A stretch of DNA of 60,067 nucleotides. Origin: Ginglymostoma cirratum. Its lineage: Eukaryota. The stretch covers positions 788,658-848,724 of the forward strand of contig JAHRHZ010000019.1 of the NCBI GenBank assembly GCA_024137785.1, written 5' to 3'. A program made the position numbers and the translations under genes. The notes below the pieces were generated by a model. It was not told the DNA's origin and searched no databases. It saw only the letters and a list, made by a program, of their open reading frames with translations. Below are positions 14,200 through 51,199 of this stretch, piece after piece; the first letter of the stretch is position 1, and each line of letters begins with the position of its first letter.

Positions 14200-14544
14200 G
14201 TGTAAATGACCCAGACCTTCTCCGGTCTCCAATCCTGGAACATGTCACTGAGGGTCACACTGCCTGGCTACAGTGCACCATGAGGAACACCGCACTGACA
14301 CACACTGGTGTTCACTGGTACTGGAAGCGAAAAGGACGTCAGCGGGAGCGGATTTCGATACATTACACGTGGAATTATGTAAATAGGTATTCAGGATTCA
14401 CTGATCGATTCCAGCCTTCCAGAGACCCCTCCAGTTACAGCTTCATTCTGACCATCACAAACGTGCAGCCCAGTGACACTGGGGTCTATTACTGCTCAGT
14501 CTGGGGAAGGATTTATGGGAGAGGAAGCCTGCTCAATGTCACCA
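14200..14544 (+). CDS. Exon V1: Ig V-set domain with germline-joined J-like strand
   Basis: Acceptor ttttattctgaag, donor gtaagt, phase 1-1, 345 nt; WLQC...VHWYW...DRF...FILTITNVQPSDTGVYYCSVWGRIYGRGSLLNVT. Confidence 0.93.
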
Positions 14545-16412: not shown

Positions 16413-16757
16413 GTGCAAATGCCCCAATCCTTCTCCAGTCTCCGATCCTGGAACGTGTCAGTGAGGGTCACACTGCCTGGCTACAGTGCACCGTGAGGAA
16501 TGCTGCAGTGACACACACCGATGTTCACTGGCACTGGAAGCAAACGGGGAACAACACGGAGTGGGTTTTAACACATAATGTGAGGAACTTCCCATAATGA
16601 AGCTCAGGATTCACTGAGCGATTCCAGTCTTCCAGAGACCCCTCCAATAACAGGTTCATTCTGACCATCACAAACATGCAGCCCAATGACACCGGGGTCT
16701 ATTATTGTAAAGTGTGGGGAGATATCAATGGGAATGGAACCCAGCTGACTGTAATAG
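16413..16757 (+). pseudogene. Exon V2: Ig V-J-type domain with two in-frame stops (missing from the ORF track)
   Basis: Acceptor tttatctgctag, donor gtaagt, phase 1-1, 345 nt; ANAPILLQSPILERVSEGHTAWLQC...VHWHW...RNFP**SSGFTERF...DTGVYYCKVWGDINGNGTQLTVI; TAA 16595-16597, TGA 16598-16600. Confidence 0.92.
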
Positions 16758-17600: not shown

Positions 17601-18774
17601 GAACATGTTGAATGGTGGTGCAGGCACAATGGCTGAATGGCCTACTCCTGCTCCTATTTTCTCTGTTTGGAGAAGATGATAGTGAGGTGCTTTCCAGACC
17701 TGCTGTGGTCTACTTGGCGTTGGGACATTTGACCCAGTGACACTGGAGGAACGATCATGACATATTTCCAAGTCTGGATGGTGAGAGCCTTGGAGGGGAA
17801 CCTGAAGGAGGTGGTGTCACGTGCATCTACTCCCCTTGTATGTTCTGTTGGAAGAGTCTCTGGGTTCAGAAGTTAGTTTTGGAGGAGCCTTAGTAGGATA
17901 TCTTGGAGATGGTACAAGCTCTATATCAGTTTTGAATGTTGAATGTGTTAGTTGTGGCATTGCTTTGTCCTGGATGGCGTGGTGCTTTTTGAATGCTGTT
18001 GGAGCTGTACCCACCCAGGCAAGAGTAGAAGGAGGCAGTTCAACCCATCTTGTCTGCACTGACTCTTAAAATGATCATCATTCCTGACTGTCAATGTCCT
18101 GCATTGGATACAGAATCAGATGTAGCAACGGTGAATCAGAAAGGGCGTGGTCAGGGTGCATCAAATGCAGGCTGTTTGAAACTTTCAACCTTTTCCTTTC
18201 GGTTTTTGGTGAGAATGAAACTTTTCAAATGGCTGCTCGAACTCTTCAATCAGTCAGCTGTGCACTTTGTGAAATTCTCTTCTCGATAGTTTATTCTGTT
18301 ACAGGATCCTGCACAAAATGAATCAAAGCAACAAATTGGAAAGCTTTCTGCTGATGGATATATTTCAAATCATTCCCTCTCAAATCACAAACAGCAATAT
18401 TCACACACAAATCTTCAGTTCATTCCCTGCAAATCATCATTTAACAAGGAGGAGATTTTACAAAATGTTACAATTCACATTACAAGATTTTTCCTCTTCG
18501 ATATTTTTCCTCTCCTTCATTTTGGTGTCGGCGGCAGTTCGAAGCGGGAAGAGTGGCAGCGAGCACCAGAGGCCTGACGGGAAGGTAAGTCGGTTTAAAA
18601 ACTTACCTCGAGCGGCAAGCGGTCTTTTCCTCACCAGGAGCGGCGGGAGACGGAGCGGAGGTGACGTTGGAGACCAGGAGGTTGTGAGGAAGGTAAGGAA
18701 TTAGTATATATTTGGGCAGCAGCATTAAGTGCATTGTTTGGTATTAGTTAGTTGAGTCAGAGCTAAGGCTTACA

Positions 18775-19722
18775 ATGGCAGGGGACCTCAGACCCGTGGC
18801 ATGTGCCTCTTGCTTGATGTGGGAGATCAGGGACGTGACTGATGTCCCTGACTGTTACACTTGCAGGAAGTGTGTCCAGCTGCAGCTCTTGTTGGACCGC
18901 ATGACGGCTCTGGAGTTGCGGGTAGACTCACTGTGGAGCATCCGCGATGCTGAGAAGGTCATGGATAGCACGTTTAGCGAATTGGTCACACCGCAGATTA
19001 GGATTGCTGAGGGAGACAGTGAATGGGTGACCAAAAGGCAGAGAAAGAGCAGGAAGGCAGTGCAGGTATCCCCTGCGGTCATCTCCCTCCAAAACAGGTA
19101 TACCGTTTTGGATACTGTTGGGGGAGATGGCTCACCAGGGGAGGGCAGCAGTTGCCTGGATCATGGCACCATGGCGGGCACTGCTGTTCAGAAGGGCGGG
19201 AAAAAGACTCATAGGGCCATAGTCATAGGGGATTCTATTGGAAGGGGAGTAGATAGGCGGTTCTGTGGCCGAAAACGGGAGTCCCGGATGGTGTGTTGCC
19301 TCCCAGCTGCTCGGGTCAGGGATGTCACCGATCGGCTACAGAGCATTCTGAAAAGGGAGGGTGAACAGCCAGTTGTTGTGGTGCTTATAGGCACCAATGA
19401 TATAGGTAAAAAACGAGATGAGGTCCTGAAAGCAGAATTCAGGGAGCGAGGAGAGAAGTTAAAGAGGAGGACCTCAAAGGTAGTGATCTCAGGGATGCTA
19501 CCAGTGCCGCGTGCTAGCCAGGGTAGAAATGAAAGAATAGGCAGGATGAACACGTGGCTTGAGGGATGGTGTAGGAGGAAAGGGTTCAGATTTGTGGGAC
19601 ATTGGGACCGGTTCTGGGGAAGGTGGGACTATTACAAATTGGATGGTCTACACCTGAACCAGACTGGAACGAGTGTCCGAGGGGGAGTTTTTGCTAGGGC
19701 TGTTGGGGAGGGTTTAAACTAA
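18775..19722 (+). CDS. CR1 ORF1p: zinc finger, coiled coil and SGNH esterase-like domain (315 aa)
   Basis: CASC...CRKC, leucine-rich heptads, IVIGDS, IGTND and DGLH; uninterrupted ORF. Confidence 0.93.
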   Translation: MAGDLRPVACASCLMWEIRDVTDVPDCYTCRKCVQLQLLLDRMTALELRVDSLWSIRDAEKVMDSTFSELVTPQIRIAEGDSEWVTKRQRKSRKAVQVSPAVISLQNRYTVLDTVGGDGSPGEGSSCLDHGTMAGTAVQKGGKKTHRAIVIGDSIGRGVDRRFCGRKRESRMVCCLPAARVRDVTDRLQSILKREGEQPVVVVLIGTNDIGKKRDEVLKAEFRERGEKLKRRTSKVVISGMLPVPRASQGRNERIGRMNTWLEGWCRRKGFRFVGHWDRFWGRWDYYKLDGLHLNQTGTSVRGGVFARAVGEGLN

Positions 19723-22514
19723 TGTGGCAGGGGTCTGGGAACCAGAGGAGAAGACGAGTAGACAGTGAGGTGGAAACTAGAGACTGTAAGGATCATGAAG
19801 TTAGCATTACCAAGGGCAAGAGTAGGCAGAGAGCAGATGAACGCAAAGGAACTGGTGGTCTGAAGTGCATATTCTTTAATGCAAGGAGTATAGTGGGTAA
19901 GGCAGACGAGCTTAGGTCTTGGATTAGTGCCTGGGAGTATGACGTTATTGCGATCACAGAGACTTGGTTGAAGGAAGGGGATGATTGGCAACTAAATGTC
20001 CCAGGATATAGATGCTTCAGACAGGACAGGGAGGGAAGTAAAAGTGGGGGAAGAGTTGCATTGCTGGTCAGGGATGATATCACGGCTGTGCTAAAGGAGG
20101 GCACTATGGAGGGCTTGAGCAGTGAGGCATTATGGGTAGAGCTGAGAAATAAGAAGGGTGCAGTTACGTTGTTGGCGCTGTACTACAGGCCTCCCAACAG
20201 TGAGCGTGAGGTAGAAGAACAAACAGGTCGACAGATTATGGAAAGATGTAGAGGTAACAGGGTGGTGGTGATGGGAGATTTTAATTTTCCCAACATTGAC
20301 TGGGATACACTTAGTGTCAGAGGTCTGGATGGGGCAGAATTTGTAAGGAGCATCCAGGAGGGTTTTCTAGAGCAGTATGTCAATAGTCCAACTAGGGAAG
20401 GGGCCATATTGGACCTAGTGTTGGGGAAAGGGCCAGGCCAGGTGGTAGAAGCTGCAGTGGGGGATTTCTTTGGGAATAGTGACCACAATTCTGTAAGTTT
20501 TAGAATACTCGTAGACAAAGATGAGAGTGGTCCTAAGGGAAGAATACTAAACTGGGCCAGCGCCAATTATATCAAAATTCGGCAGGAGCTGGGAAATGTG
20601 GATTGGGGACAGCTATTTGAAGGGAAGTCCACATTTGATATGTGGGAGGCTTTCAAAGATAGGTTGAAGATAGTGCAGGATAGGCATGTCCCTTTGAAAA
20701 CAAGGGATAGGAAAGGAAAGATTCGTGAACCGTGGATGACAGGAGAAATCGTGCGACTAGCCAAGAAGAAAAGGGAAGCGTACATAAGGTCCAGGCAGCT
20801 AAGAACAGAACGGTCCTTGGAGGAATATCGGGAGAGTAGGACCAATCTTAAACGAGGAATCAAGCGGGCTAAAAGGGGTCATGAAATAACTTTAGCGAAC
20901 AGAATTAAGGAGAATCCCAAGGCCTTTTATTCATGTATAAGAAGCAGGAGGGTAACTAGAGAAAGGGTTGGTTCACTAAAGGATAAGGAAGGAAGGTTTT
21001 GTGTCGAACCTGAGAAAATGGGTGAGATTCTCAATGATTACTTTGCATCAGTGTTCACTGAGGAGAGGGACATGATGAATGTTGAGATTAGAGATAGAAG
21101 TTTGTTTACTCTGGATCACGTTGACATAAGGAGGGAAGATGCGTTGGGTAGGCTAAAGGATATTAAGGTGGACAGATCCCCAGGACCGGATGGGATCTAT
21201 CCCAGGATGCTGAGGGAGGCGAGAGAGGAAATAGCTGGGGCCCTGACAGATATCTTTGTAGCATACTTAAACACAGGTGAAGTGCCAGAGGACTGGAGAG
21301 TTGCTAATGTTGTCCCCCTGTACAAGAAGGGTAGTAAGGATATTCCAGGTAACTACAGACCAGTAAGCCTGACGTCAGTGGTGGGAAAGTTGCTGGAGAA
21401 GGTACTGAGGGATAGAATCTATTTATATTTGGAAAAGAATGGGCTTATCAGTGATAGGCAACATGGTTTTGTGCAGGGGAGATCATGCCTTACTAACTTA
21501 ATAGAGTTCTTTGAGGAAGTGACCAAGTTGATAGATGAAGGAAGGGCTGTAGATGTCATCTACATGGACTTTAGTAAGGCGTTTGATAAGGTTCCCCATC
21601 GTAAACTAATGGAGGAAGTGAAGTCACATGGTGTACAGGGTGTTCTAGCTAGGTGGATAAAGAACTGGTTGAGCAACAGGAGACAGAGAGTAGTAGTTGA
21701 AGGTAGTTTCTCGAAATGGAGAAAAGTGACCAGTGGTGTTCCACAGGGATCAGTGCTGGGGCCACTGTTGTTTGTGATGTACATAAATGATCTGGAAGAG
21801 GGCATAAGTGGTCTGATCAGTAAGTTTGCAGATGACACGAAGATTGGGGGAGTAGCAGAAAGCATAGGGGATTGTCAAAGAATACAGGAGAATATAGATA
21901 GACTGGAGAGTTGGGCGGAGAAGTGGCAGATGGAGTTCAATCCGGGCAAGTGTGAGGTGATGCGTTTTGGGAGGTCTAATTCTAGAGCAAACTATACTGT
22001 AAACAGAAGAGCCTTGGGAAAAGTTGATGAGCAGAGAGATCTGGGAGTTCAGGTCCATTGTACCCTGAAGGTGGCTGCACAGGTGGATAGAGTGGTCAAG
22101 AAGGCATATGGTATGCTTGCCTTCATCGGACGGGGTATTGAGTATAAGAGCTGGCAGGTCATGTTAAAATTGTACAAGACTTTGGTTCGGCTGCATTTAG
22201 AATACTGTGTACAGTTCTGGTCGCCACATTACCAAAAGGATGTGGAAGCTTTGGAGAGGGTACAGAGAAGGTTTACGAGGATGCTGCCTGGTATGGAAGG
22301 TGCTAGCTATGAAGAGAGGTTGAGTAGGTTAGGATTGTTTTCATTAGAAAAAAGGAGATTGAGGGGGGACCTGATTGAGGTCTTCAAAATCATGAAGGGT
22401 ATAGACAGGGTTGATAGAGATAAGCTTTTTCCCGGGGTGAGGCATTCAATAACGAGGGGTCACGCGTTCAAGGTGAGAGGAGAAAAGTTTAAGGGGGATA
22501 CACGGGGAAAGTAA
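19722..22514 (+). CDS. CR1 ORF2p: APE endonuclease + reverse transcriptase (930 aa, one premature stop near the C-terminus)
   Basis: FNARS, TETWL, GDFN, NSDH; [35 protein letters not shown]. After TAA at 22512-22514 the frame continues FTQRVVGAWNALP... to TGA at 22656-22658. Confidence 0.95.
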   Translation: MWQGSGNQRRRRVDSEVETRDCKDHEVSITKGKSRQRADERKGTGGLKCIFFNARSIVGKADELRSWISAWEYDVIAITETWLKEGDDWQLNVPGYRCFRQDREGSKSGGRVALLVRDDITAVLKEGTMEGLSSEALWVELRNKKGAVTLLALYYRPPNSEREVEEQTGRQIMERCRGNRVVVMGDFNFPNIDWDTLSVRGLDGAEFVRSIQEGFLEQYVNSPTREGAILDLVLGKGPGQVVEAAVGDFFGNSDHNSVSFRILVDKDESGPKGRILNWASANYIKIRQELGNVDWGQLFEGKSTFDMWEAFKDRLKIVQDRHVPLKTRDRKGKIREPWMTGEIVRLAKKKREAYIRSRQLRTERSLEEYRESRTNLKRGIKRAKRGHEITLANRIKENPKAFYSCIRSRRVTRERVGSLKDKEGRFCVEPEKMGEILNDYFASVFTEERDMMNVEIRDRSLFTLDHVDIRREDALGRLKDIKVDRSPGPDGIYPRMLREAREEIAGALTDIFVAYLNTGEVPEDWRVANVVPLYKKGSKDIPGNYRPVSLTSVVGKLLEKVLRDRIYLYLEKNGLISDRQHGFVQGRSCLTNLIEFFEEVTKLIDEGRAVDVIYMDFSKAFDKVPHRKLMEEVKSHGVQGVLARWIKNWLSNRRQRVVVEGSFSKWRKVTSGVPQGSVLGPLLFVMYINDLEEGISGLISKFADDTKIGGVAESIGDCQRIQENIDRLESWAEKWQMEFNPGKCEVMRFGRSNSRANYTVNRRALGKVDEQRDLGVQVHCTLKVAAQVDRVVKKAYGMLAFIGRGIEYKSWQVMLKLYKTLVRLHLEYCVQFWSPHYQKDVEALERVQRRFTRMLPGMEGASYEERLSRLGLFSLEKRRLRGDLIEVFKIMKGIDRVDRDKLFPGVRHSITRGHAFKVRGEKFKGDTRGK

Positions 22515-22757: not shown

Positions 22758-23105
22758 ATCCATTGGCTGATTCAGTCCTTATTCAGCATCGAGTGGTCAG
22801 CAAGGTACCAGAAGGTGAAACTGTTGAGTTCCAGTGTGCCATGTACAATGCCAGTGTGATTGACACTGATGTACACTGGCACTACCAGCGACCTGACAGC
22901 AACACGGAGTGGGTAATAAGCCAGTTTGTGAATGGCACCCTCACCAAGGCCCAGGGTTTCCGCGATCGTGTTCATATTTCCAGGAATGTCTGCAGGAACA
23001 GTTACATTCTGAGCCTTGTGAATGTGACTGTCAATGATAGTGCTGTGTACCACTGCAGTGTGTGGAGCTACACCTATGGAGCAGGGAGCCAGCTCAATGT
23101 AACCG
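22758..23105 (+). CDS. Exon V3: Ig V-J-type domain, rich in N-glycosylation sequons
   Basis: Acceptor gaacag, donor gtaagg, phase 1-1, 348 nt; EFQC...VHWHY...DRV...YILSLVNVTVNDSAVYHCSVWSYTYGAGSQLNVT. Confidence 0.92.
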
Positions 23106-23637: not shown

Positions 23638-23786
23638 AAAAATCTTCCCATGGCTTTCCCTGGGTTTCATATCCTATTTTAATCAAAGGCATTATTCTGT
23701 TTTTCGCTGTTGTGATCTGCATTATCCTGTCCATACCTTTTCTTTGGAAACAAAAACTGCTCATCACTAAAGAACTCCACGCAAGG
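23638..23786 (+). CDS. Transmembrane exon with intramembrane lysine
   Basis: Branch-like cctaac, acceptor ttttacag, phase-1 start matching V3; (E)KSSHGFPWVSYPILIKGIILFFAVVICIILSIPFLWKQKLLITKELHAR, donor gtaaat (phase 0). Confidence 0.85.
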
Positions 23787-26435: not shown

Positions 26436-26473
26436 GAGCCCTGGTGAAGACCAGAACACTGTGTATGAAACAG
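26436..26473 (+). CDS. Probable small cytoplasmic exon (SPGEDQNTVYET), non-canonical donor
   Basis: Acceptor gcatttttttag; tyrosine motif; ending at cag|gaaagc gives the phase 1 needed by the 30470 exon, but the donor is GA not GT. Confidence 0.45.
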
Positions 26474-30469: not shown

Positions 30470-30543
30470 GGTCATTGGCAGCAACTGGTGACCAGTATAT
30501 GCCTGGAGCTTACAGAATCCCTCCTTCAACAGGACATAGAAAG
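30470..30543 (+). CDS. Cytoplasmic exon (GSLAATGDQYMPGAYRIPPSTGHRK)
   Basis: Acceptor tttactctttgtctcacag, strong donor aag|gtgagc, open in phase 1 to 0, compatible with the next exon. Confidence 0.72.
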
Positions 30544-32195: not shown

Positions 32196-32237
32196 AATGT
32201 AAAAGATTCTCGAGCAAATTCTGACTCCACATACATG
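32196..32237 (+). CDS. Cytoplasmic exon with first half of ITAM (NVKDSRANSDSTYM)
   Basis: Acceptor tccattttattacag, donor atg|gtaaat, 42 nt, phase 0-0. Confidence 0.82.
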
Positions 32238-33459
32238 GTAAATATCTCACACTGCAATTAACATCTGAGTTTTATAAAATTCATCCTATTCCCAAAGAGT
32301 TCTCTTTCTGAGATTTCATTGGTTCCATCATCTGACAGAAATCTGTATTAACCAATCAACAACAGTGAGAATGAACTCAGGACTGAGCAAATCAGATTGT
32401 CCTTCATGCTGGATTCCCAATTTGATTACAGGGATCTTCATGCTCAGGTCCCATATTATTGTCTGAACTCTCTGATCTTGTTGTTTTCCAATCCCGGGGT
32501 CAAACCACCACCTCCTGAGCCCCGCCTGGACCCCACAAGTTCAAGGCTCATCCTCTTCCACTCAGCCCGACAAACTCAGTGCTATCCCTTCCTCCCTCAT
32601 GCCCAATCATCTGGCCTCCTCAGTTTCCGCCAACTTCAGGGGCAACTTTGGTCATCACTGCATTCCACAATTCTTGGAAAGAATGATCATTTTCCATTTA
32701 TATCACTCCTCCCATAATCTCAGCATTGCTTGGGAGCCTTTACACTGAGTGAAGTGCTTTTGAAACGTGGTCACTGTTACCAGAAAGAAAGGCACCAATT
32801 TAAACACAGCAAGGTTACAGGGAGAACAATGCTGCTGTAGAATATTAGAACATAAGAGAAAGGACCAAATGTAAAGCCGACAGCTCCTCCTCGTTGCTCC
32901 ACAATTCAATACAATCCTGGTGGATAATCTGCCCCAATTCTACTTTCCAATCTGCTCCTCATATCTCAGAAATTCTCAGAAAGACAAGATGTCTCCACGT
33001 TTCAGCCCAAAACGCGCTTACTGATGGAACATCGTCAAGTCTTTAGCGGAGAGAATTCCAAAGATTAGCAACCCTTTGAAGAAAGAAATTTCTTCCAAAC
33101 AGATATACCCCTGATTGTGAAAACAGGGCTTCAGTTTGATATCTGATTGAAAAGCCTGTCCTGCTGACACTGCTGCACTGCCTCTGTCCTGCACTGAGGG
33201 ACCAGCCTGGATGGTATGATCAAATCTAGGGACTCAGCTTTCAATCCAAAATCTCCAGTCTCAAAAACCAATGTTTTTCCACCGAGCCAACACTAATAAA
33301 TGAAGGAGGCTGTAAAAATGCGTCAGGTTCCAGTGAGAGAAATCTCTTTTGTCCATAAGCAGTAAATGTTGTTAGAATGCGAAATAATTCTGAGTAAGCC
33401 ACCATTGCGTTCATTGTCTAGATCACAACATTTTTTTAACATTTCTCTTTCCCTGTTAG

Positions 33460-33502
33460 GCATTGCAGCAACATGATTGCTCTATTTACAGTGAGCTTAG
33501 AG
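33460..33502 (+). CDS. Cytoplasmic exon with second half of ITAM (ALQQHDCSIYSELR)
   Basis: Acceptor atttctctttccctgttag, donor gag|gtatgt, 43 nt, phase 0 to 1; completes YMAL-x7-YSEL. Confidence 0.85.
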
Positions 33503-35181: not shown

Positions 35182-35207
35182 GCTCTAAACAAACTCCTGA
35201 AACCTAA
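35182..35207 (+). CDS. Terminal coding exon (GSKQTPET*)
   Basis: Acceptor ttttaattttgtttggacag; phase 1 gives GSKQTPET-TAA; phase 0 gives ALNKLLKPNVQKQSFRGCLGPGA-TAA (35253). Confidence 0.6.
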
Positions 35208-40115: not shown

Positions 40116-43100
40116 TAGAACTTAGAACTTAGAACATAGAACATAGAACAGTACAGCACAATACAGGCGCTTTGGCCCACGATGTTGTGCCGAACTTTTA
40201 CCCTAATCCTAGGGTCTATCTAACCTCCACCCCGACCTTATACTATCATCTATATGCCTATCTAATAGCCGCTTAAATGCCCCTAATGAGGCCGACTCCA
40301 CTATCAATTCCAGCAATGCATTCCATGCCCCTACCACTCTCTGAGTAAAGAACCTACCTCTGACGTCTCCCCTGTATCTACGTCCACTCACTTTAGAACT
40401 ATGCCTCCTCATAATAGCTACCTCCACCCTCGGAAAAAGTCTCTGGCTATCCACTCTGTCTATACTTCTGATCATTTTGTACACCTCATCAAGTCACTTC
40501 TCACCCTTTGTCGTTCTAAAGAGAAAAGCTCTAGCTCTCTCAACCTTTCCTTGTAAGACTTTCCCTCCATTCCAGGCAACATACTGGTAAATCTCCTCTG
40601 CACCTTTTCTGATGCTTCCACAACTTTCCTGTAATGAGGCGACCAGAACTGGACTGAATACTCCAGATGTAGCCGAACCAGGGTTTAGTATAGCTGGAGC
40701 ATAACTTCACAGCTCTTGAACTCAATCCCTCTATTAATGAAAGCTAACACACCATACACTTTCTTAACAACTCTATCCACCTGGATGGCAGCTTTCGGGC
40801 AACTGTGGACATGAACCCAAAGATCCCTCTGCTCCTCCACACTGCCAAGAATCTTTCCGTTAACCCTGTATTCTGCTTTCAAAATTGTCCTTCCAAAATG
40901 AATCACTTCACACTTTTCAGGGTTAAACTCCATCTGCCACTTCTCAGCCCAGTTCTGCACCCTACCAATGTCCCTTTGTAACCTAGAACAGCCCTCCGCA
41001 CTATCCACAACTCAATCCACCTTCGTATCATCTGCGAACTTGCTAACCCACCCTTCCACTCCTACATCCAAATCGTTTACAAAAATCACAAATAGAAGAG
41101 GGCCCAGAACAGATCCTTGTGGTACACCACTCGTAACTGAGCATCATGTTGAATATTTTCCGTCCATGACCACCCTTTGTCTTCTAAGGGTCAGCCAATT
41201 CTGAATCCATTTTGTCACATTTTCCCCTATCCCATGCCTCCTTACTTTCTGCATGAGCCTACCATGGGGAACCTTATCAAACGTCTTACTTAAATCCATG
41301 TATACCACATCCACTGCTCTACCTTCATCCATGTGTTTGGTGACCTCTTCAAAGAATTCCTTAAGGTTTGTGAGGCATGATCTACCCCTCACAAATCCAT
41401 GCTGACTATCGTGAATCAAACTGTACCTATCCAAGTGATCATAAATCCTCCCTCTCAGAGCCCTTTCCAATAATTTGTCCACCACTGAAATAAGACTAAC
41501 GGGCCTGTAATTTCTGGGGTTATCCCTATTCCCTTTTTTGAACAAGGGAATGACGTTTGCCACTCTCCAATCTTCCGGCACTATACCCGTGGACAGTGAG
41601 GATGAAAAGATCATCGCCAAAGGCCCTGTGATCTCTACTTTTGCTTCTCACAGAATCCTTGGTTAAATCCCATCAGGCCAGGGGGACTTGTCTGTCTTCA
41701 GTTCCTTAAAATTTGTAGTACATCTTGCTTACTAAGATCCACCTCTTCTAGCCTACCAGCATCTACAGCTAGGTCCCTTTCTTCCCGAAGAAAAGTATTC
41801 ATTAAGGACCTCTCCTATCTCTTTAGGTTCTGTACACAAATTCCCTTTAAAATCCTTGATTGGCCCTACCTTTTTCTGGTTATTCTCTTATTCACCACGT
41901 CCGTTTAAAAAGCCTTGGAGTTTTCCTTGATCCTGTTTGCCAAGGTTTTCTCATGCACTCTTATAGCTCTCCTAAGCCCTTTCTTCAGTTCCTTCCTGGC
42001 TAACTTGTATCCCTCCAGAGCCTCTTTCGATCCTGTTTCCTAAACCTTATGTAAGCCTCCTTCTTCCTCTTAACTAATCGTTTGACCTCTCTCGACCACA
42101 TTTTCCCTGCCTGCTAGGGACAAACATATCGAGCACACACAGTACGCATTCCTTAAACAATCTCCACATTTCTCTAGTGCTCTTCCCTGACAGCATCTGT
42201 TCCCATTTTATGTTACCCAGCTCTTGCCGAACAGAATTATAATTACCCAACCCTCAATTATAAACCTTACCCTACCCTCAATTATAAACCTTACCCTGCT
42301 GTATGTACCTGTCCTTTTCCATGACTATTGTAAAAGTAACAGAGTTATGATCACTACCGCCAAAATGCTCTCCTACCAACAGGCCTAACACTTGGCCCGG
42401 TTCGTTGCCAAGCACCAAATTCAAAGTGGCTTCTCCTCATGTTTGTCTATCTACATACTGTGTCAAGAATCCTTTCTGAACTCACTGGACAAAATCTGCT
42501 CCCTCTAAACTATTACAACTAAGATGTTTCCAATCAATATTTGGAAAGTTGAAGTCACCCATGACTACAATGCTGTGACTTCTGCACCTTTCCAGTATCT
42601 GCCTCCCAATCCGCTCCTCCACTTCTCTGCAACTGTAAAAGTGTGAGCTGATTCACTTTGGAAGAAAAGTGCGAGGTGATTCACCTTGGAAGGAGTAACA
42701 GTAATACAGAGTACTGGGCTAATGGTAAGATTCTTGGTAGTGTGGATGAGCAGAGAGATCTCAGTGACCATGTGCATAGATCCCTGAAAGTTGCCACCCA
42801 GGTTGATAGGGTTGTTAAGAAGGCGTACGGTGTGTTAGCTTTTATTGGTAGAGGGATTGAGTTTCGGAGCCATGAGGTCATGTTGCAGCTGTACAAAACT
42901 CTGGTGCGGCTGCACTCGGAGTATTGCATACAGTTCTGGTCGCCGCATTATAGGAAGGATGTGGAAGCATTGGAAAGGGTGCAGAGGACATTTACCAGGA
43001 TGTTGCCTGGTATGGAGGGAAGGTCTTACAAGGAAAGGCTGAGGGACTTGAGGCTGTTTTCGTTAGAGAGAAGAAGGTTAAGAGGTGACTTAATAGAGAC

Positions 43101-43890
43101 ATACAAGATGATCAGAGGATTAGATAGGGTGGACAGTGAGGGCCTTTTTCCTCGGATGGTGACAGCTAGCACAAGGGGACATAGCTTTAAATTGAGGGGT
43201 GATAGTTATAGGACAGATGTCAGAGGTAGGTTCTTTACTCAGAGAGTAGTAAGGGCGTGGAATGCCCTGCCTGCAACAGTTACAGACTTGCCAACTTTAA
43301 GGGCATTTAAATGGTCATTAGATAAACACATGGATGATAATGGAATAGTGTAGGTTAGATGGGCTTCAGATTGGTTTCACAGGTTGGCGCAACATCGAGG
43401 GCCAAAGGGCCTGTACTGCGCTGTAATGTTCTATGTTCTATGTTCTATGACGGGGTCTGTAAAAAAGCCACAACAAAGTGACTGCTCCTTTCTTGTTCTG
43501 GGCCTCAACCCAAACTGACTCTGTAGACATATCATTCTCCAACTGCCTTTCTGTAGCTGCTATACTAACCCTGACTAGCAATGCCACCCCCCCACCTCTT
43601 TTTCCACCCTCCCTATTTCTTTTAAAGCATATAAATCCCAGGACTTCCAACAACTATTCCTCTCCCTGAGTTACCCAAGTTTCTGTGATGGCCATAACAT
43701 CGTAGTTCCATGTACTAACCCATGCTCTAAGTTCATTCGCCTTATTTCTGATACTTCTAGCATTGAAGTATACTCACCTCATACCATCCCTGTGTCCACA
43801 ATTATGCTCCATTGACCGCATTTCTTCATTAACCACCTTACTGTTGGAAGGCTGAACACTTCATCCTCTGAATTACAAATTCGGTTCCCC
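40116..43890 (-). mobile_element. CR1 LINE, nearly complete but broken ORF2, containing a nested CR1
   Basis: NYRPVSL, DLSKTFDKVPH, WQMEFNPEKCEVIHFGR and GGGVALLVR; (agaacat)n tail at 40116-40150; same subfamily as 44960-50352. Confidence 0.9.
42636..43448 (+). mobile_element. Young 5'-truncated CR1 nested in opposite orientation
   Basis: Open 231-aa C-terminal ORF2 at 42658-43353 and (tctatgt)n tail; host sequence resumes in register on both sides. Confidence 0.9.
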
Positions 43891-44881: not shown

Positions 44882-47514
44882 GCCATCAGCAAATCACACA
44901 CTGTGATCGCTGAGTTCTGAAGAAGTTCTAAGGAAGTGTCACTGGACCCGAAACGTCAACACTTTTTAAAATTCTTCCAGAAATCTAGAGTAGAAGGAAT
45001 GGACGCTAGGGCAGTTGCATGCTCCTGTTGCAGGATGTGGGAGGTAAGGGTCACTGCTGGTGTCCCCTCTGACTTTACCTGCGAGAAGTGCACCCAACTC
45101 CAGCTCCTCAAAAACCGCATTAGGGAACTGAAGCTGGAGCTGGATGAACTCCGGATCATTCGGGAGGCTGAGGCGGTGAGAGAGAGGAGTTATAGGGAGG
45201 TGTCACACCCAAGGTACAGGAAAAAGGTAGCTGGGTGACTGTCAGGAAGGGGAAAAGGGATAGGCAGACAGTGCAGGGATCCCCTGTGGTCATTCCCCTC
45301 AACAATAAGTATACCATTTTGGATACTGTTGGGTGGGACAACCTGCCAGGGGAAGGCCATAGCAGACAGGTCTCTGGCACTGAGCCTGGCCCTGTAGCAC
45401 AGAAGGGAAGGGGGGAGAATAGGTGAGCAATTGTAGTGGGGGATTCGATAGTAAGAGGCACAGACAGGCGGTTCTGTAGACGCGAACAAGATGAGCGGAT
45501 GGTATATTGCCTCCCGGGTGCCAGGGTCCATGATGTCTCGGATCATGTCTTCAAGATCCTTAAGGGGGAGGTTGAACAACCAGTAGTCATGGTACACATC
45601 GGTACCAATGACACAGGTAGAAAAAGGACAGAGAATGTGAAAAATGAGTACTGGGAGTTAGGCTGGAAGCTGAAGTCCAGGACAAACAGGGTAGTTATCT
45701 CTGGATTACTACGAGTGCCACGTGATAACGAGGTAAGAAATAGGGACAGAGTGCAACTAAACACGTGGCTACAGGGCTGGTGTAGGAGGGAGGGCTTCCA
45801 TTATGTGGATAACTGGAGCCCATTCTGGGGAAGGTGGGGCCTATACAGTAAGGATGGGTTGCACCTGAACCAGAAGGGCACAAATATCCTGGGAGGGAGG
45901 TTTGCTCGAGCTATATGGGATGGTTCAAACTAGATTGGCAGGGGGTGGGGAACCGGATTTATAATTCAGAGGATGAGGTATTCAGCTTTCCAATGGACAA
46001 AACAGAGAGTGATATAACAAGGTGTAGAGCTGGATGAACACAGCAGGCCAAGCAGCATCAGAGGAGCAGGAAAGCTATTCTACTCGGCTTTATTGGACTC
46101 AACCTGACCTCACAATTCTACTCGGCTTTATTGGACTCATCTCTGAAACAAGAGGGAGTTTACAAACAAATGCGGTCGATGGAGCGTAATTGTGGACACA
46201 GGGATGGTATGAGGTGTGTATACTTCAATGCTAGAAGTATCAGAAATAAGGCAAATGAACTTAGAGCATGGGTTAGTACTTGGAACTACGATGTTATGGC
46301 CATTACAGAAACTTGGGTAACTCAGGGAGAGGAATGGTTGTTGGAAGTCCCGGGATTTAGATGCTTTAAAAGAAAGAGGGAGAGTGGAAAAAGAGGCGGG
46401 GGAGTAGCATTGCTAGTCAGGGCTAGTATAGCAGCTGCTGAAAGGCAGTTGGAGAATGATATGTCTACAGAGTCAGAGATAAAAGGTACTGCAGATGCTG
46501 GAGAATCCGAGATAACAAGCATGGGGCTGGATGAACACAGCAGGTCAAGCAGCATCATAGGAGCAGGAAAACTTGACGTTTCGGGCCTAAACCCTTCTTC
46601 AAGGACCACAACTTCCCCCCAACAGTGGTTGAGAACGCCCTCGACCATGTCTCCCGCATTTCCCGGAACACATCCCTCACGCCCCGTCCCCGCAACAATA
46701 ACCAAAAAAGAATCCCCCTCGTCCTCACATACCACCCCACCAACCTCCGGATCCAACGCATCATCCTCCAACACTTCCGCCATCTGCAATCAGACCCCAC
46801 CACCAAAGACATTTTTCCCTCCCCACCCTTATCTGCCTTCCGGAGGGACCACTCCCTCCGCGACTCCCTTGTCCGCTCCGCACTCCCCTCCAGCCCCACC
46901 ACACCCGGCACTTTTCCATGTAACCGCAGGAAGTGCTACACCTGCCCCCACACCTCCTCCCTCACCCCAATCCCAGGCCCCAAGAAGACTTTCCACATCA
47001 GGCAGAGGTTCACCTGCACATCTGCCAATGTGGTATACTGCATCCGCTGTACCCGTTGTGGCTTCCTCTACATCGGGGAAACCAAGCGGAGGCTTGGGAA
47101 CCGCTTTGCAGAACACCTGCGCTCAGTTCGCAACGAACAACTGCACCTCCCAGTCGCGAACCATTTCAACTCCCCCTCCCATTCCTCAGATGACATGTCC
47201 ATCCTTGGCCTCCTACAATGCCACAGTGATGCCACCCGAAGGCTGCAGGAACAGCAAATCATATTCAGCCTGGGAACCCTGCAGCCCAATGGCATCAATG
47301 TGGATTTCACAAGCTTCAAAATCTCCCCTCCCCCCAACCGCATCCCAAAACCAGCCCAGCTCATCTCCACCTCCCTAACCGGTTTTTCCTCTCACCCCAA
47401 GCCACACCCCCATCTCCTATCTACTAACATCATCCCGCCCCCTTGACCTGTCCGTCCTCCCTGGACTGACCTATCTCCTCCCTACCCCCCTACCTACACT
47501 CACCTTTACTGGCT

Positions 47515-51147: not shown

Positions 51148-51199
51148 ATGATCAGTGGAACTCAATTTGCTGTGACCCTGTCCCTCTGTGTTGCTTTGG
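51148..51199 (+). CDS. Leader (signal peptide) exon of paralogous copy B
   Basis: MISGTQFAVTLSLCVAL+G then consensus gtaagt; phase 1 as required by the V exons; followed by sequence paralogous to that preceding V1. Confidence 0.82.

What the first reader, a model, noticed from the sequence alone, without database searches (positions are those of the whole stretch)
32196..33502. Canonical ITAM split over two micro-exons at the CD3/FcRgamma/DAP12-type position
Seen: the 42-nt exon ends DSTYM in phase 0 and the 43-nt exon begins ALQQHDCSIYSELR, giving DxxYxxL-x7-YxxL, which is invisible in the ORF track. Known: ITAMs of CD3 chains, FcRgamma and DAP12 are interrupted by a phase-0 intron one residue after the first tyrosine. 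Inference: the motif is homologous to the adaptor ITAM module rather than a chance match, suggesting exon shuffling or an ancestral self-signalling receptor.
Basis: partly seen in the sequence, partly recalled or inferred. Interest (0 to 1): 0.72.

Follow-up and report, generated by a model that had tools for sequence, protein, structure and literature searches.

The report
Split ITAM in broken shark receptor
The two tiny exons do spell a standard immune 'on' signal, split the way such signals usually are, but they sit in a broken and likely dead copy of a shark-and-ray receptor family that comes in predicted 'on' and 'off' versions and whose outer domains most resemble an antibody light chain.

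Summary
Confirmed: exons 32196-32237 (42 nt) and 33460-33502 (43 nt) join in phase 0 to DSTYM|ALQQHDCSIYSEL, an ITAM with a 7-residue spacer. A contig from a related organism (RNA is a guess) reads across the junction; 24 of 120 family proteins (12 shark/ray genera) carry the motif; this genome's CD3-zeta is split at the same place (2 of 2 ITAMs found). But the split is the general ITAM layout (also CEACAMs), so it does not single out shuffling from an adaptor. Only 1 of 14 splice routes tested keeps the ITAM in frame. The gene belongs to an apparently unnamed cartilaginous-fish family: tandem single-exon VJ domains, uncharged TM, ITAM or ITIM/ITSM tail. Its closest outside relative is the Ig light-chain sigma-2 V (tree 94/87; alternatives not rejected). 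The scan noted this family, the split ITAM and the sigma-2 link before, on other genomes.

The parts
14200..14544 (+). VJ exon 1 (single-exon V-set domain with J-like G-x-G end), phase 1-1, open frame
   Evidence: Pfam V-set E 2.5e-16; ends AG/GT
16413..16757 (+). VJ exon 2, splice sites intact, two in-frame stop codons at 16595-16600
   Evidence: 6 of 6 paralog exons of this type aligned are open here
22758..23105 (+). VJ exon 3, open frame
   Evidence: Pfam V-set E 5.7e-15; 93% to a whale-shark family protein
23638..23786 (+). Stalk/transmembrane exon, 149 nt against 151 nt in paralogs: 2 nt missing near 23758, frame shifts just after the TM
   Evidence: 6 of 6 paralog rows that cover the site have the 2 nt; 4 of 4 in the alignment; lengths
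26436..26473 (+). Remnant of cytoplasmic exon A (44 nt in intact paralogs); 6 nt missing and no GT donor
30470..30543 (+). Cytoplasmic exon B, phase 1 to 0 (3 nt shorter than a paralog)
32196..32237 (+). Cytoplasmic exon C, 42 nt, phase 0 to 0, ends D-S-T-Y-M (first ITAM tyrosine +1)
   Evidence: paralogs
32238..33459 (+). Phase-0 GT-AG intron inside the first YxxL
   Evidence: junction contig in a relative
33460..33502 (+). Cytoplasmic exon D, 43 nt, phase 0 to 1, A-L-x7-Y-S-E-L
   Evidence: paralogs
35182..35207 (+). Terminal coding exon E (G-S-K-Q-T-P-E-T-stop)
   Evidence: matches the contig end and the C-termini of P0009 and P0076
51148..51199 (+). Likely leader exon (52 nt, phase 1) of the next family gene, whose three VJ, TM and ITIM/ITSM-type exons lie just past the window and read open
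   Evidence: downstream exons at C19:856-868 kb

Best explanation
The two micro-exons encode a split ITAM at the tail of a broken, likely dead copy of the predicted activating member of a cartilaginous-fish paired-receptor family. Shown: exon structure, motif, the lesions in this copy, conservation of the motif in relatives, two tail types on shared ectodomains, uncharged TM. Inferred: intact activating members (1-6 VJ domains, TM, exons A-B-C-D-E or a variant) signal by themselves; ligand clustering lets a Src-family kinase phosphorylate both tyrosines, the tandem SH2 domains of Syk/ZAP-70 dock, and an upstream Y-E-N-V motif in many members would recruit Grb2. Sister genes with near-identical ectodomains and ITIM/ITSM-like tails would recruit SHP-type phosphatases. 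The cluster turns over by duplication, tail swapping and decay; this copy would give no signalling receptor. The ITAM exon pair is most likely an old vertebrate module shared by descent with CD3/CD79/CEACAM-type ITAMs, donor unknown.
For: Lesions: stops in VJ exon 2, 2-nt loss in the TM exon, lost donor of exon A. After the TM exon only 1 of 14 routes tested keeps the ITAM in frame, and it needs exons A and B skipped, besides VJ exon 2, whose splice sites are intact. Exons C+D are no better conserved than their intron against three paralogs (0.77-0.84 vs 0.79-0.81; p 0.33-0.78). Of six other tail copies found in this genome three are broken in C or D, one lacks a D match, one has a frameshifted V exon, one could be read only from exon D on. 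Family: 24 of 120 proteins ITAM, 41 ITIM/ITSM, 25 other, 29 no TM; none of the 24 has a charged TM residue. P0047 (ITAM) and P0048 (ITIM/ITSM-like tail) are 90% identical and share TM and proximal tail. CD247 split at the same place.
Against: No transcript data for this copy or this species could be laid (no holder above 0.26 of the words). dN/dS of the window's V exons (private changes about 0.5) does not differ from open paralogs (0.1-2.4), so decay is recent or the test is too weak. The route TM-C-D-E is in frame. The tally of 24 was selected by the motif itself; its value lies in the spread over 12 genera and in the spacer (27 matches of 7 residues against 1 of 10 when 6-12 were allowed). 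The proteins are database gene models. Pfam ITAM (PF02189) was not hit by any of 5 ITAM-bearing proteins at E <= 5. Signalling was not tested.
Confidence: 0.8

Rival explanations
1. This copy is alive through exon skipping: leader - VJ1 - VJ3 - TM - C - D - E, where the TM frameshift brings exon C into frame and gives a short-tailed ITAM receptor.
For: TM-C-D-E translates open to the normal stop with the ITAM intact; exons C, D, E and their splice sites are all intact, whereas most paralog copies are broken there; V exons are phase 1-1 and can be skipped; skipping of exon C and an alternative D acceptor are seen in gene models of relatives (P0062, P0026).
Against: Needs three skips at once, two of exons with good splice sites; no leader of the neighbour's type found in the 14 kb before VJ1 (other leader types or an unread stretch could hold it); TM has gained Lys and Pro; no exon-over-intron conservation.
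Confidence: 0.1
2. The ITAM exon pair was shuffled into the family directly from a CD3/CD79/FcR-gamma/DAP12-type adaptor gene.
For: Same phase and place as in CD247 of this genome; exons B-C-D form a phase 1-1 cassette that is duplicated in P0047, exon C is duplicated in P0052, so the module is mobile.
Against: The same split is found in CEACAM receptors and called the rule for classical ITAMs; Ig receptors with their own ITAMs exist in hagfish (NICIR3, PMC3634110, passages; its exon layout not seen); exon sizes differ from CD247 (69 and 39 nt first halves against 42); a search with a family tail found only family members (6 of 6).
Confidence: 0.2
3. The ITAM and its intron position arose independently (convergence) by joining two single-tyrosine exons.
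For: Only four positions define the motif; no sequence similarity to adaptors beyond them.
Against: An intron falling at random in an 18-codon motif would hit this exact place about once in 50 (inference); 2 of 2 CD247 ITAMs and both tail subfamilies here share it.
Confidence: 0.12
4. The gene is intact in life and the lesions are assembly errors or one null allele.
For: The 2-nt loss lies in a short TG repeat.
Against: Adjacent stop codons by substitution and a 6-nt loss with donor change are separate lesions 7-10 kb apart; decay of neighbours is common.
Confidence: 0.05

Closest known systems
Classical ITAM subunits (CD3, CD247/TCR-zeta, FcR-gamma, DAP12, CD79; PMC4536121, passages read)
   Same: D/E/N-x-x-YxxL-x7-YxxL on two exons, boundary inside the first tyrosine module; identical place and phase to CD247 of this genome.
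   Different: No acidic TM residue; 1-6 VJ domains of its own; part of a multigene cluster with inhibitory sisters.
CEACAM paired receptors, CEACAM1 with CEACAM3/4/28 and Xenopus ceacams (PMC2832619, PMC2110893, PMC5112662; passages read)
   Same: Own ITAM split by a phase-0 intron in the first YxxL, four short cytoplasmic exons, YxN motif, ITIM/ITSM sisters with similar ectodomains, many pseudogenes. Best functional model.
   Different: Ectodomain is tandem disulfide-type VJ domains with a J-like end, closest to Ig light chain V; no CEACAM came up among named hits.
Ig light chain sigma-2 (sigma-cart, NS5, type I) of cartilaginous fish (PMC4279169, PMC5192425; passages read)
   Same: Best-scoring V domains outside the family (94-124 bits against 63 or less for other V domains among the listed hits; 89-122 against 55-66 in this genome); the joined sigma-2 VJ of this genome has the same junction length as 31 of 33 family domains.
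   Different: No C1 domain, no rearrangement, tandem V exons, TM and signalling tail.
Non-rearranging VJ genes UrIg, UrIg2, NCR3/NKp30, PRARP (PMC12227049 abstract, introduction, one results section; PMC10751288 passages)
   Same: Single-exon VJ domains, no rearrangement.
   Different: Those have one VJ, with C1 domains (UrIg, UrIg2, PRARP) or with an adaptor-binding charged TM (NKp30, recalled); this family has several VJ, no C1 and its own ITAM or ITIM. They were not in my trees.
Hagfish NICIR3/ALA (PMC3634110, passages read) and mammalian NFAM1 (recalled)
   Same: Ig V-containing receptors that carry their own ITAM.
   Different: V-C or single V ectodomain; Ig_NFAM1 profile stays under its cut-off; exon layouts not checked.

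Membership tests
Classical ITAM | D/E/N-x-x-YxxL/I-x(6-8)-YxxL/I in a cytoplasmic tail | tested here: met
   (met in sequence; in this copy out of frame by the normal splice route)
Classical ITAM | Two exons, phase-0 boundary inside the first YxxL | tested here: met
   same as CD247 here
Classical ITAM | Phosphorylation and Syk/ZAP-70 binding | not testable with these tools
   needs a reporter or binding assay
ITAM adaptor subunits (CD3, CD247, FcR-gamma, DAP12, CD79) | Acidic residue in the TM | tested here: not met
   0 of 24 ITAM forms have a charged residue in the TM core
ITAM adaptor subunits (CD3, CD247, FcR-gamma, DAP12, CD79) | Short or single-Ig ectodomain | tested here: not met
   three VJ exons here, up to six in ITAM-bearing relatives
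Paired immune receptors (functional class) | Clustered genes with similar ectodomains and opposite tail motifs | tested here: met
   cluster map; P0047/P0048 90% identical with opposite tails; 24 ITAM and 41 ITIM/ITSM of 120
Paired immune receptors (functional class) | Opposite signalling shown in cells; shared ligand | not testable with these tools
   no ligand or expression data
CEACAM | CEACAM-type N domain and relatedness | tested here: inconclusive
   no CEACAM among named hits; family V has two cysteines and a J-like end; no direct alignment to a CEACAM was run
Ig light chain sigma-2 | V related to sigma-2 V | tested here: inconclusive
   top outside hits; family + sigma-2 one side of a branch 94/87, 92% of bootstrap trees; a tree with all light chains together and the family outside is not rejected, p-AU 0.465
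Ig light chain sigma-2 | V-J-C1 cluster, secreted chain | tested here: not met
   no C1-set match over cut-off in 6 of 6 proteins; TM and tail exons follow the V exons
SIRP / VJ-C1 receptors | V followed by C1 domains | tested here: not met
   database names such as 'SHPS-1-like' are automatic
NCR3/NKp30 | Single VJ, charged TM, MHC linkage | tested here: not met
   several VJ and uncharged TM; linkage not tested; an NCR3-like cluster is a feature look-alike only

The most novel reading that the evidence does not exclude
Before chimaeras and sharks parted, a germline-joined sigma-2 light-chain VJ exon was recruited out of the antibody system, multiplied in tandem and fitted with ITAM or ITIM/ITSM tail cassettes, giving an innate paired-receptor family: a real case of the proposal that RAG acting in germ cells can create new non-rearranging receptors (PMC2193156, abstract). 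The window holds a dead activating copy.
Probability: 0.4. Interest if true: 0.75.

Novelty: new variant of a known kind. Interest (0 to 1): 0.45.

Why it matters
The split itself is ordinary for ITAMs, and this copy is broken. The family matters more. Sharks were reported to lack LRC- and FcR-type receptors (PMC4016189, passages), so what fills the paired-receptor role in them is open; here is a family present in sharks, rays and chimaeras with both tail types. Its VJ domains give a test case for an old question: are single-exon VJ receptors relics from before RAG, or products of RAG in the germline? Intact members (for example P0076, P0036, P0082) can be tested directly. Ten literature searches listed no description of the family, but the library lacks most subscription papers, and four relevant papers (shark NCR3 family 2021, primordial immune complex 2019, shark light-chain isotypes 2007, a 2024 Ig review) were not held, so 'unnamed' is provisional.

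Tried and rejected
Locating other adaptors in this genome: PF16680 no match; PF16681 best match was an unrelated I-set exon (the 14 stretches were not used further); PF07213 one weak match with stops, not followed; CD247 TM exon found only itself, no FcR-gamma; PF25830 no match. None of these shows absence. Sequencing runs: no RNA holder on record listed; 3 of 4 runs laid showed no contig bridging the junction, no evidence either way. dN/dS was uninformative. A leader-like protein hit in L037 was a repeat. PDB search gave only antibodies. Atlas search gave generic V-set clusters. The splice routes used a wrong TM exon end and were redone; stop positions noted early (16597-16602) were corrected to 16595-16600. 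First tree (66 rows) left the family + sigma-2 node open; 14 rows (5 long branches, 9 near-redundant) were dropped for the 52-row tree, after seeing the first. The joined sigma-2 gene of this genome nests among its split sigma-2 V genes (100/81), so it is not itself the source of the family; holding it with the family is not rejected either (p-AU 0.37). The RSS scan at the sigma-2 loci printed no match; 'split' and 'joined' rest on the translation after the second cysteine. One ITAM copy whose exons D and E match P0076 could not be read upstream, so whether this genome keeps an intact activating gene stays open.

Full report
Observation. The window is a stretch of a 4.36-Gb cartilaginous-fish genome (G000:C19:788658-848724; all named homologs are sharks, rays or chimaeras). 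Exon 32196-32237 (42 nt) reads NVKDSRANSDSTYM and exon 33460-33502 (43 nt) ALQQHDCSIYSELR; both have AG/GT ends and join in phase 0 to D-x-x-Y-M|A-L-x7-Y-S-E-L. They are 2 of 16 candidates kept by a splice-site scan of the + strand. A rough chance figure is 5e-5 per in-frame junction. In run X2 (another organism; RNA is a guess) one 1113-nt contig covers exon D, with loose ends that read like exon C before and the terminal exon after; the other 3 runs gave no such contig.

Gene model. Homolog-guided mapping gives VJ exons at 14200-14544, 16413-16757 and 22758-23105, a TM exon at 23638-23786, cytoplasmic exons A (26436-26473), B (30470-30543), C, D and a terminal exon E at 35182-35207. This copy carries three independent lesions: two adjacent stops in VJ exon 2 (16595-16600), a TM exon 2 nt shorter than in 6 of 6 paralog rows that cover the site, and loss of the donor of exon A. 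Of 14 splice routes after the TM exon only TM-C-D-E keeps the ITAM in frame; it needs A and B skipped, and VJ exon 2 as well. Exons C+D are no more conserved than their intron against three paralogs (p 0.33-0.78; those paralogs are broken too). dN/dS of the V exons does not separate this copy from open ones. No leader of the neighbour's type lies in the 14 kb before VJ1. I read the copy as a pseudogene (about 0.8-0.85).

Cluster. The V exon has 39 matches in the genome, most near the starts of C18 and C19. Six more tail copies were found: C19:926-928 kb (acceptor, stop and donor lesions), C19:1008-1009 kb (acceptor lost), C18:45-46 kb (second Tyr codon is a stop), C18:51 kb (exon C, no D match), C18:257 kb (intact 42+43-nt pair of a second subfamily, YM|TL-x7-YSDL, but a frameshifted V exon) and C19:749 kb (exons D and E intact, D identical in protein to P0076; upstream part unreadable). 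The gene next to the window (leader at 51148-51199) has open exons and an ITIM/ITSM-type tail.

Family. Of 120 proteins from three searches, 24 carry the ITAM, 41 an ITIM/ITSM-type tail, 25 other or partial tails (some are inhibitory tails that my pattern missed) and 29 no TM. The 24 come from 12 genera of sharks and rays; none has a charged TM core residue. The selection was by the motif, but with spacers of 6-12 allowed, 27 matches had 7 residues and one had 10. Gene models expose the exon borders: P0062 lacks exon C, P0052 has it twice, P0047 repeats B-C-D. P0047 and P0048 are 90% identical, share TM and proximal tail and end in opposite motifs. Chimaera members exist; no ITAM tail was seen in them. 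These are database gene models, not tested proteins.

Intron position. CD247 of this genome (PF11628) has EDQYQ|PLQKRDQDAYSHL and NDIYQ|GLSTATQDTYDQL, both phase 0 one residue after Tyr. Other adaptors could not be located; their Tyr+1 position in mammals is recalled, not checked. PMC4536121 (passages) states that the classical ITAM is always on two exons with the border in the first tyrosine module; PMC2832619, PMC2110893 and PMC5112662 (passages) show the same phase-0 split in CEACAM receptors. Hagfish NICIR3 has its own ITAMs (PMC3634110, passages). So common descent of the module is likely (inference, about 0.85), but the position names no donor. A tail search found only family members and Pfam ITAM was not hit.

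Ectodomain. A profile of 13 family V exons read against 1.84 billion representatives (best 150 listed, so weaker single domains are not seen) gave, outside the family, cartilaginous-fish light chains first; one cluster holds a record named Ig sigma-2. Per domain they score 94-124 bits against 63 or less for other V domains; in this genome sigma-2 V exons score 89-122, other light-chain and TCR V exons 55-66. The reverse search is less clear: a sigma-2 chain scores family V exons (up to 85 bits) about as high as other light-chain V exons (80). On V regions without J, family + sigma-2 form one side of a branch at 94/87 in 52 rows (14 of 66 rows dropped after the first tree, where the node was open). 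A tree with all light chains together and the family outside is not rejected (p-AU 0.465). 31 of 33 family domains share the junction length of the joined sigma-2 gene here, yet that gene nests among this genome's split sigma-2 genes. Joined sigma-2 genes and RAG activity in germ cells are known (PMC4279169, PMC5192425, passages), and PMC2193156 (abstract and passages) proposes that joined genes may become new receptors. Kappa, UrIg, NCR3 and PRARP were not in my trees.

Mechanism. Shown: anatomy, lesions, conservation, two tail types. From established ITAM biology and by analogy with CEACAM3/CEACAM1: intact ITAM members would signal without an adaptor through Src-family kinases and Syk/ZAP-70, inhibitory sisters through SHP phosphatases, on leukocytes, with a shared and unknown ligand. 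Inferred: birth-and-death turnover with tail exchange; the window's copy is one of the dead.

Novelty. The split is known; the family was not found in ten searches (listings only, except the papers named), and four relevant papers were not held. No supplements were read; those of PMC12227049 may list such genes. Earlier notes of this scan describe the same family, split ITAM and sigma-2 likeness on other genomes; I had reached both readings before that look-up, and they are not independent proof. Verdict: real motif, ordinary layout, broken copy, interesting family. Interest 0.45.

Noticed in passing
window 23680-23760: The TM of this copy has gained a lysine near its outer end and a proline near its inner end, absent from 4 of 4 paralogs aligned; probably decay, though a TM lysine is the mark of adaptor-binding receptors.
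   Followed up: partly
window 51148-51199 and G000:C19:856061-867701: Leader exon and open exons of the next family gene with an ITIM/ITSM-type tail: an apparently intact inhibitory neighbour.
   Followed up: partly
G000:C168 (L091, L092, L093): Three sigma-2 light-chain V loci, two split and one joined VJ with a very short junction like that of the receptor family.
   Followed up: partly
G000:C32:134733-158835 (L050-L052): CD247 gene; my scan found two split ITAMs only, a middle ITAM exon may have been missed.
   Followed up: partly
L064:643-8322 (G000:C19:260-270 kb); P0074, P0075, P0078-P0080, P0083: A third tail type, Y-E-N-I then an exon ending I-Y-T: looks like the first ITAM half with the second half replaced.
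   Followed up: no
P0047, P0052 (catshark): Duplicated ITAM exons (B-C-D cassette or exon C), a route to multi-ITAM tails as in CD3-zeta.
   Followed up: no
starts of G000:C18 (30-260 kb) and C19 (0.2-1.04 Mb); C18:57.75 Mb: The cluster lies near the starts of two contigs, which may be two sides of one locus; genes occur in both orientations; one lone V exon with a stop lies at the far end of C18.
   Followed up: no
window 18748-22514, 42652-43353, 46577-47446 and others: Most of the window is retroelement debris (reverse-transcriptase and endonuclease-like ORFs, one of 938 aa at 19698-22514 inside the intron before VJ exon 3); family names not checked.
   Followed up: no
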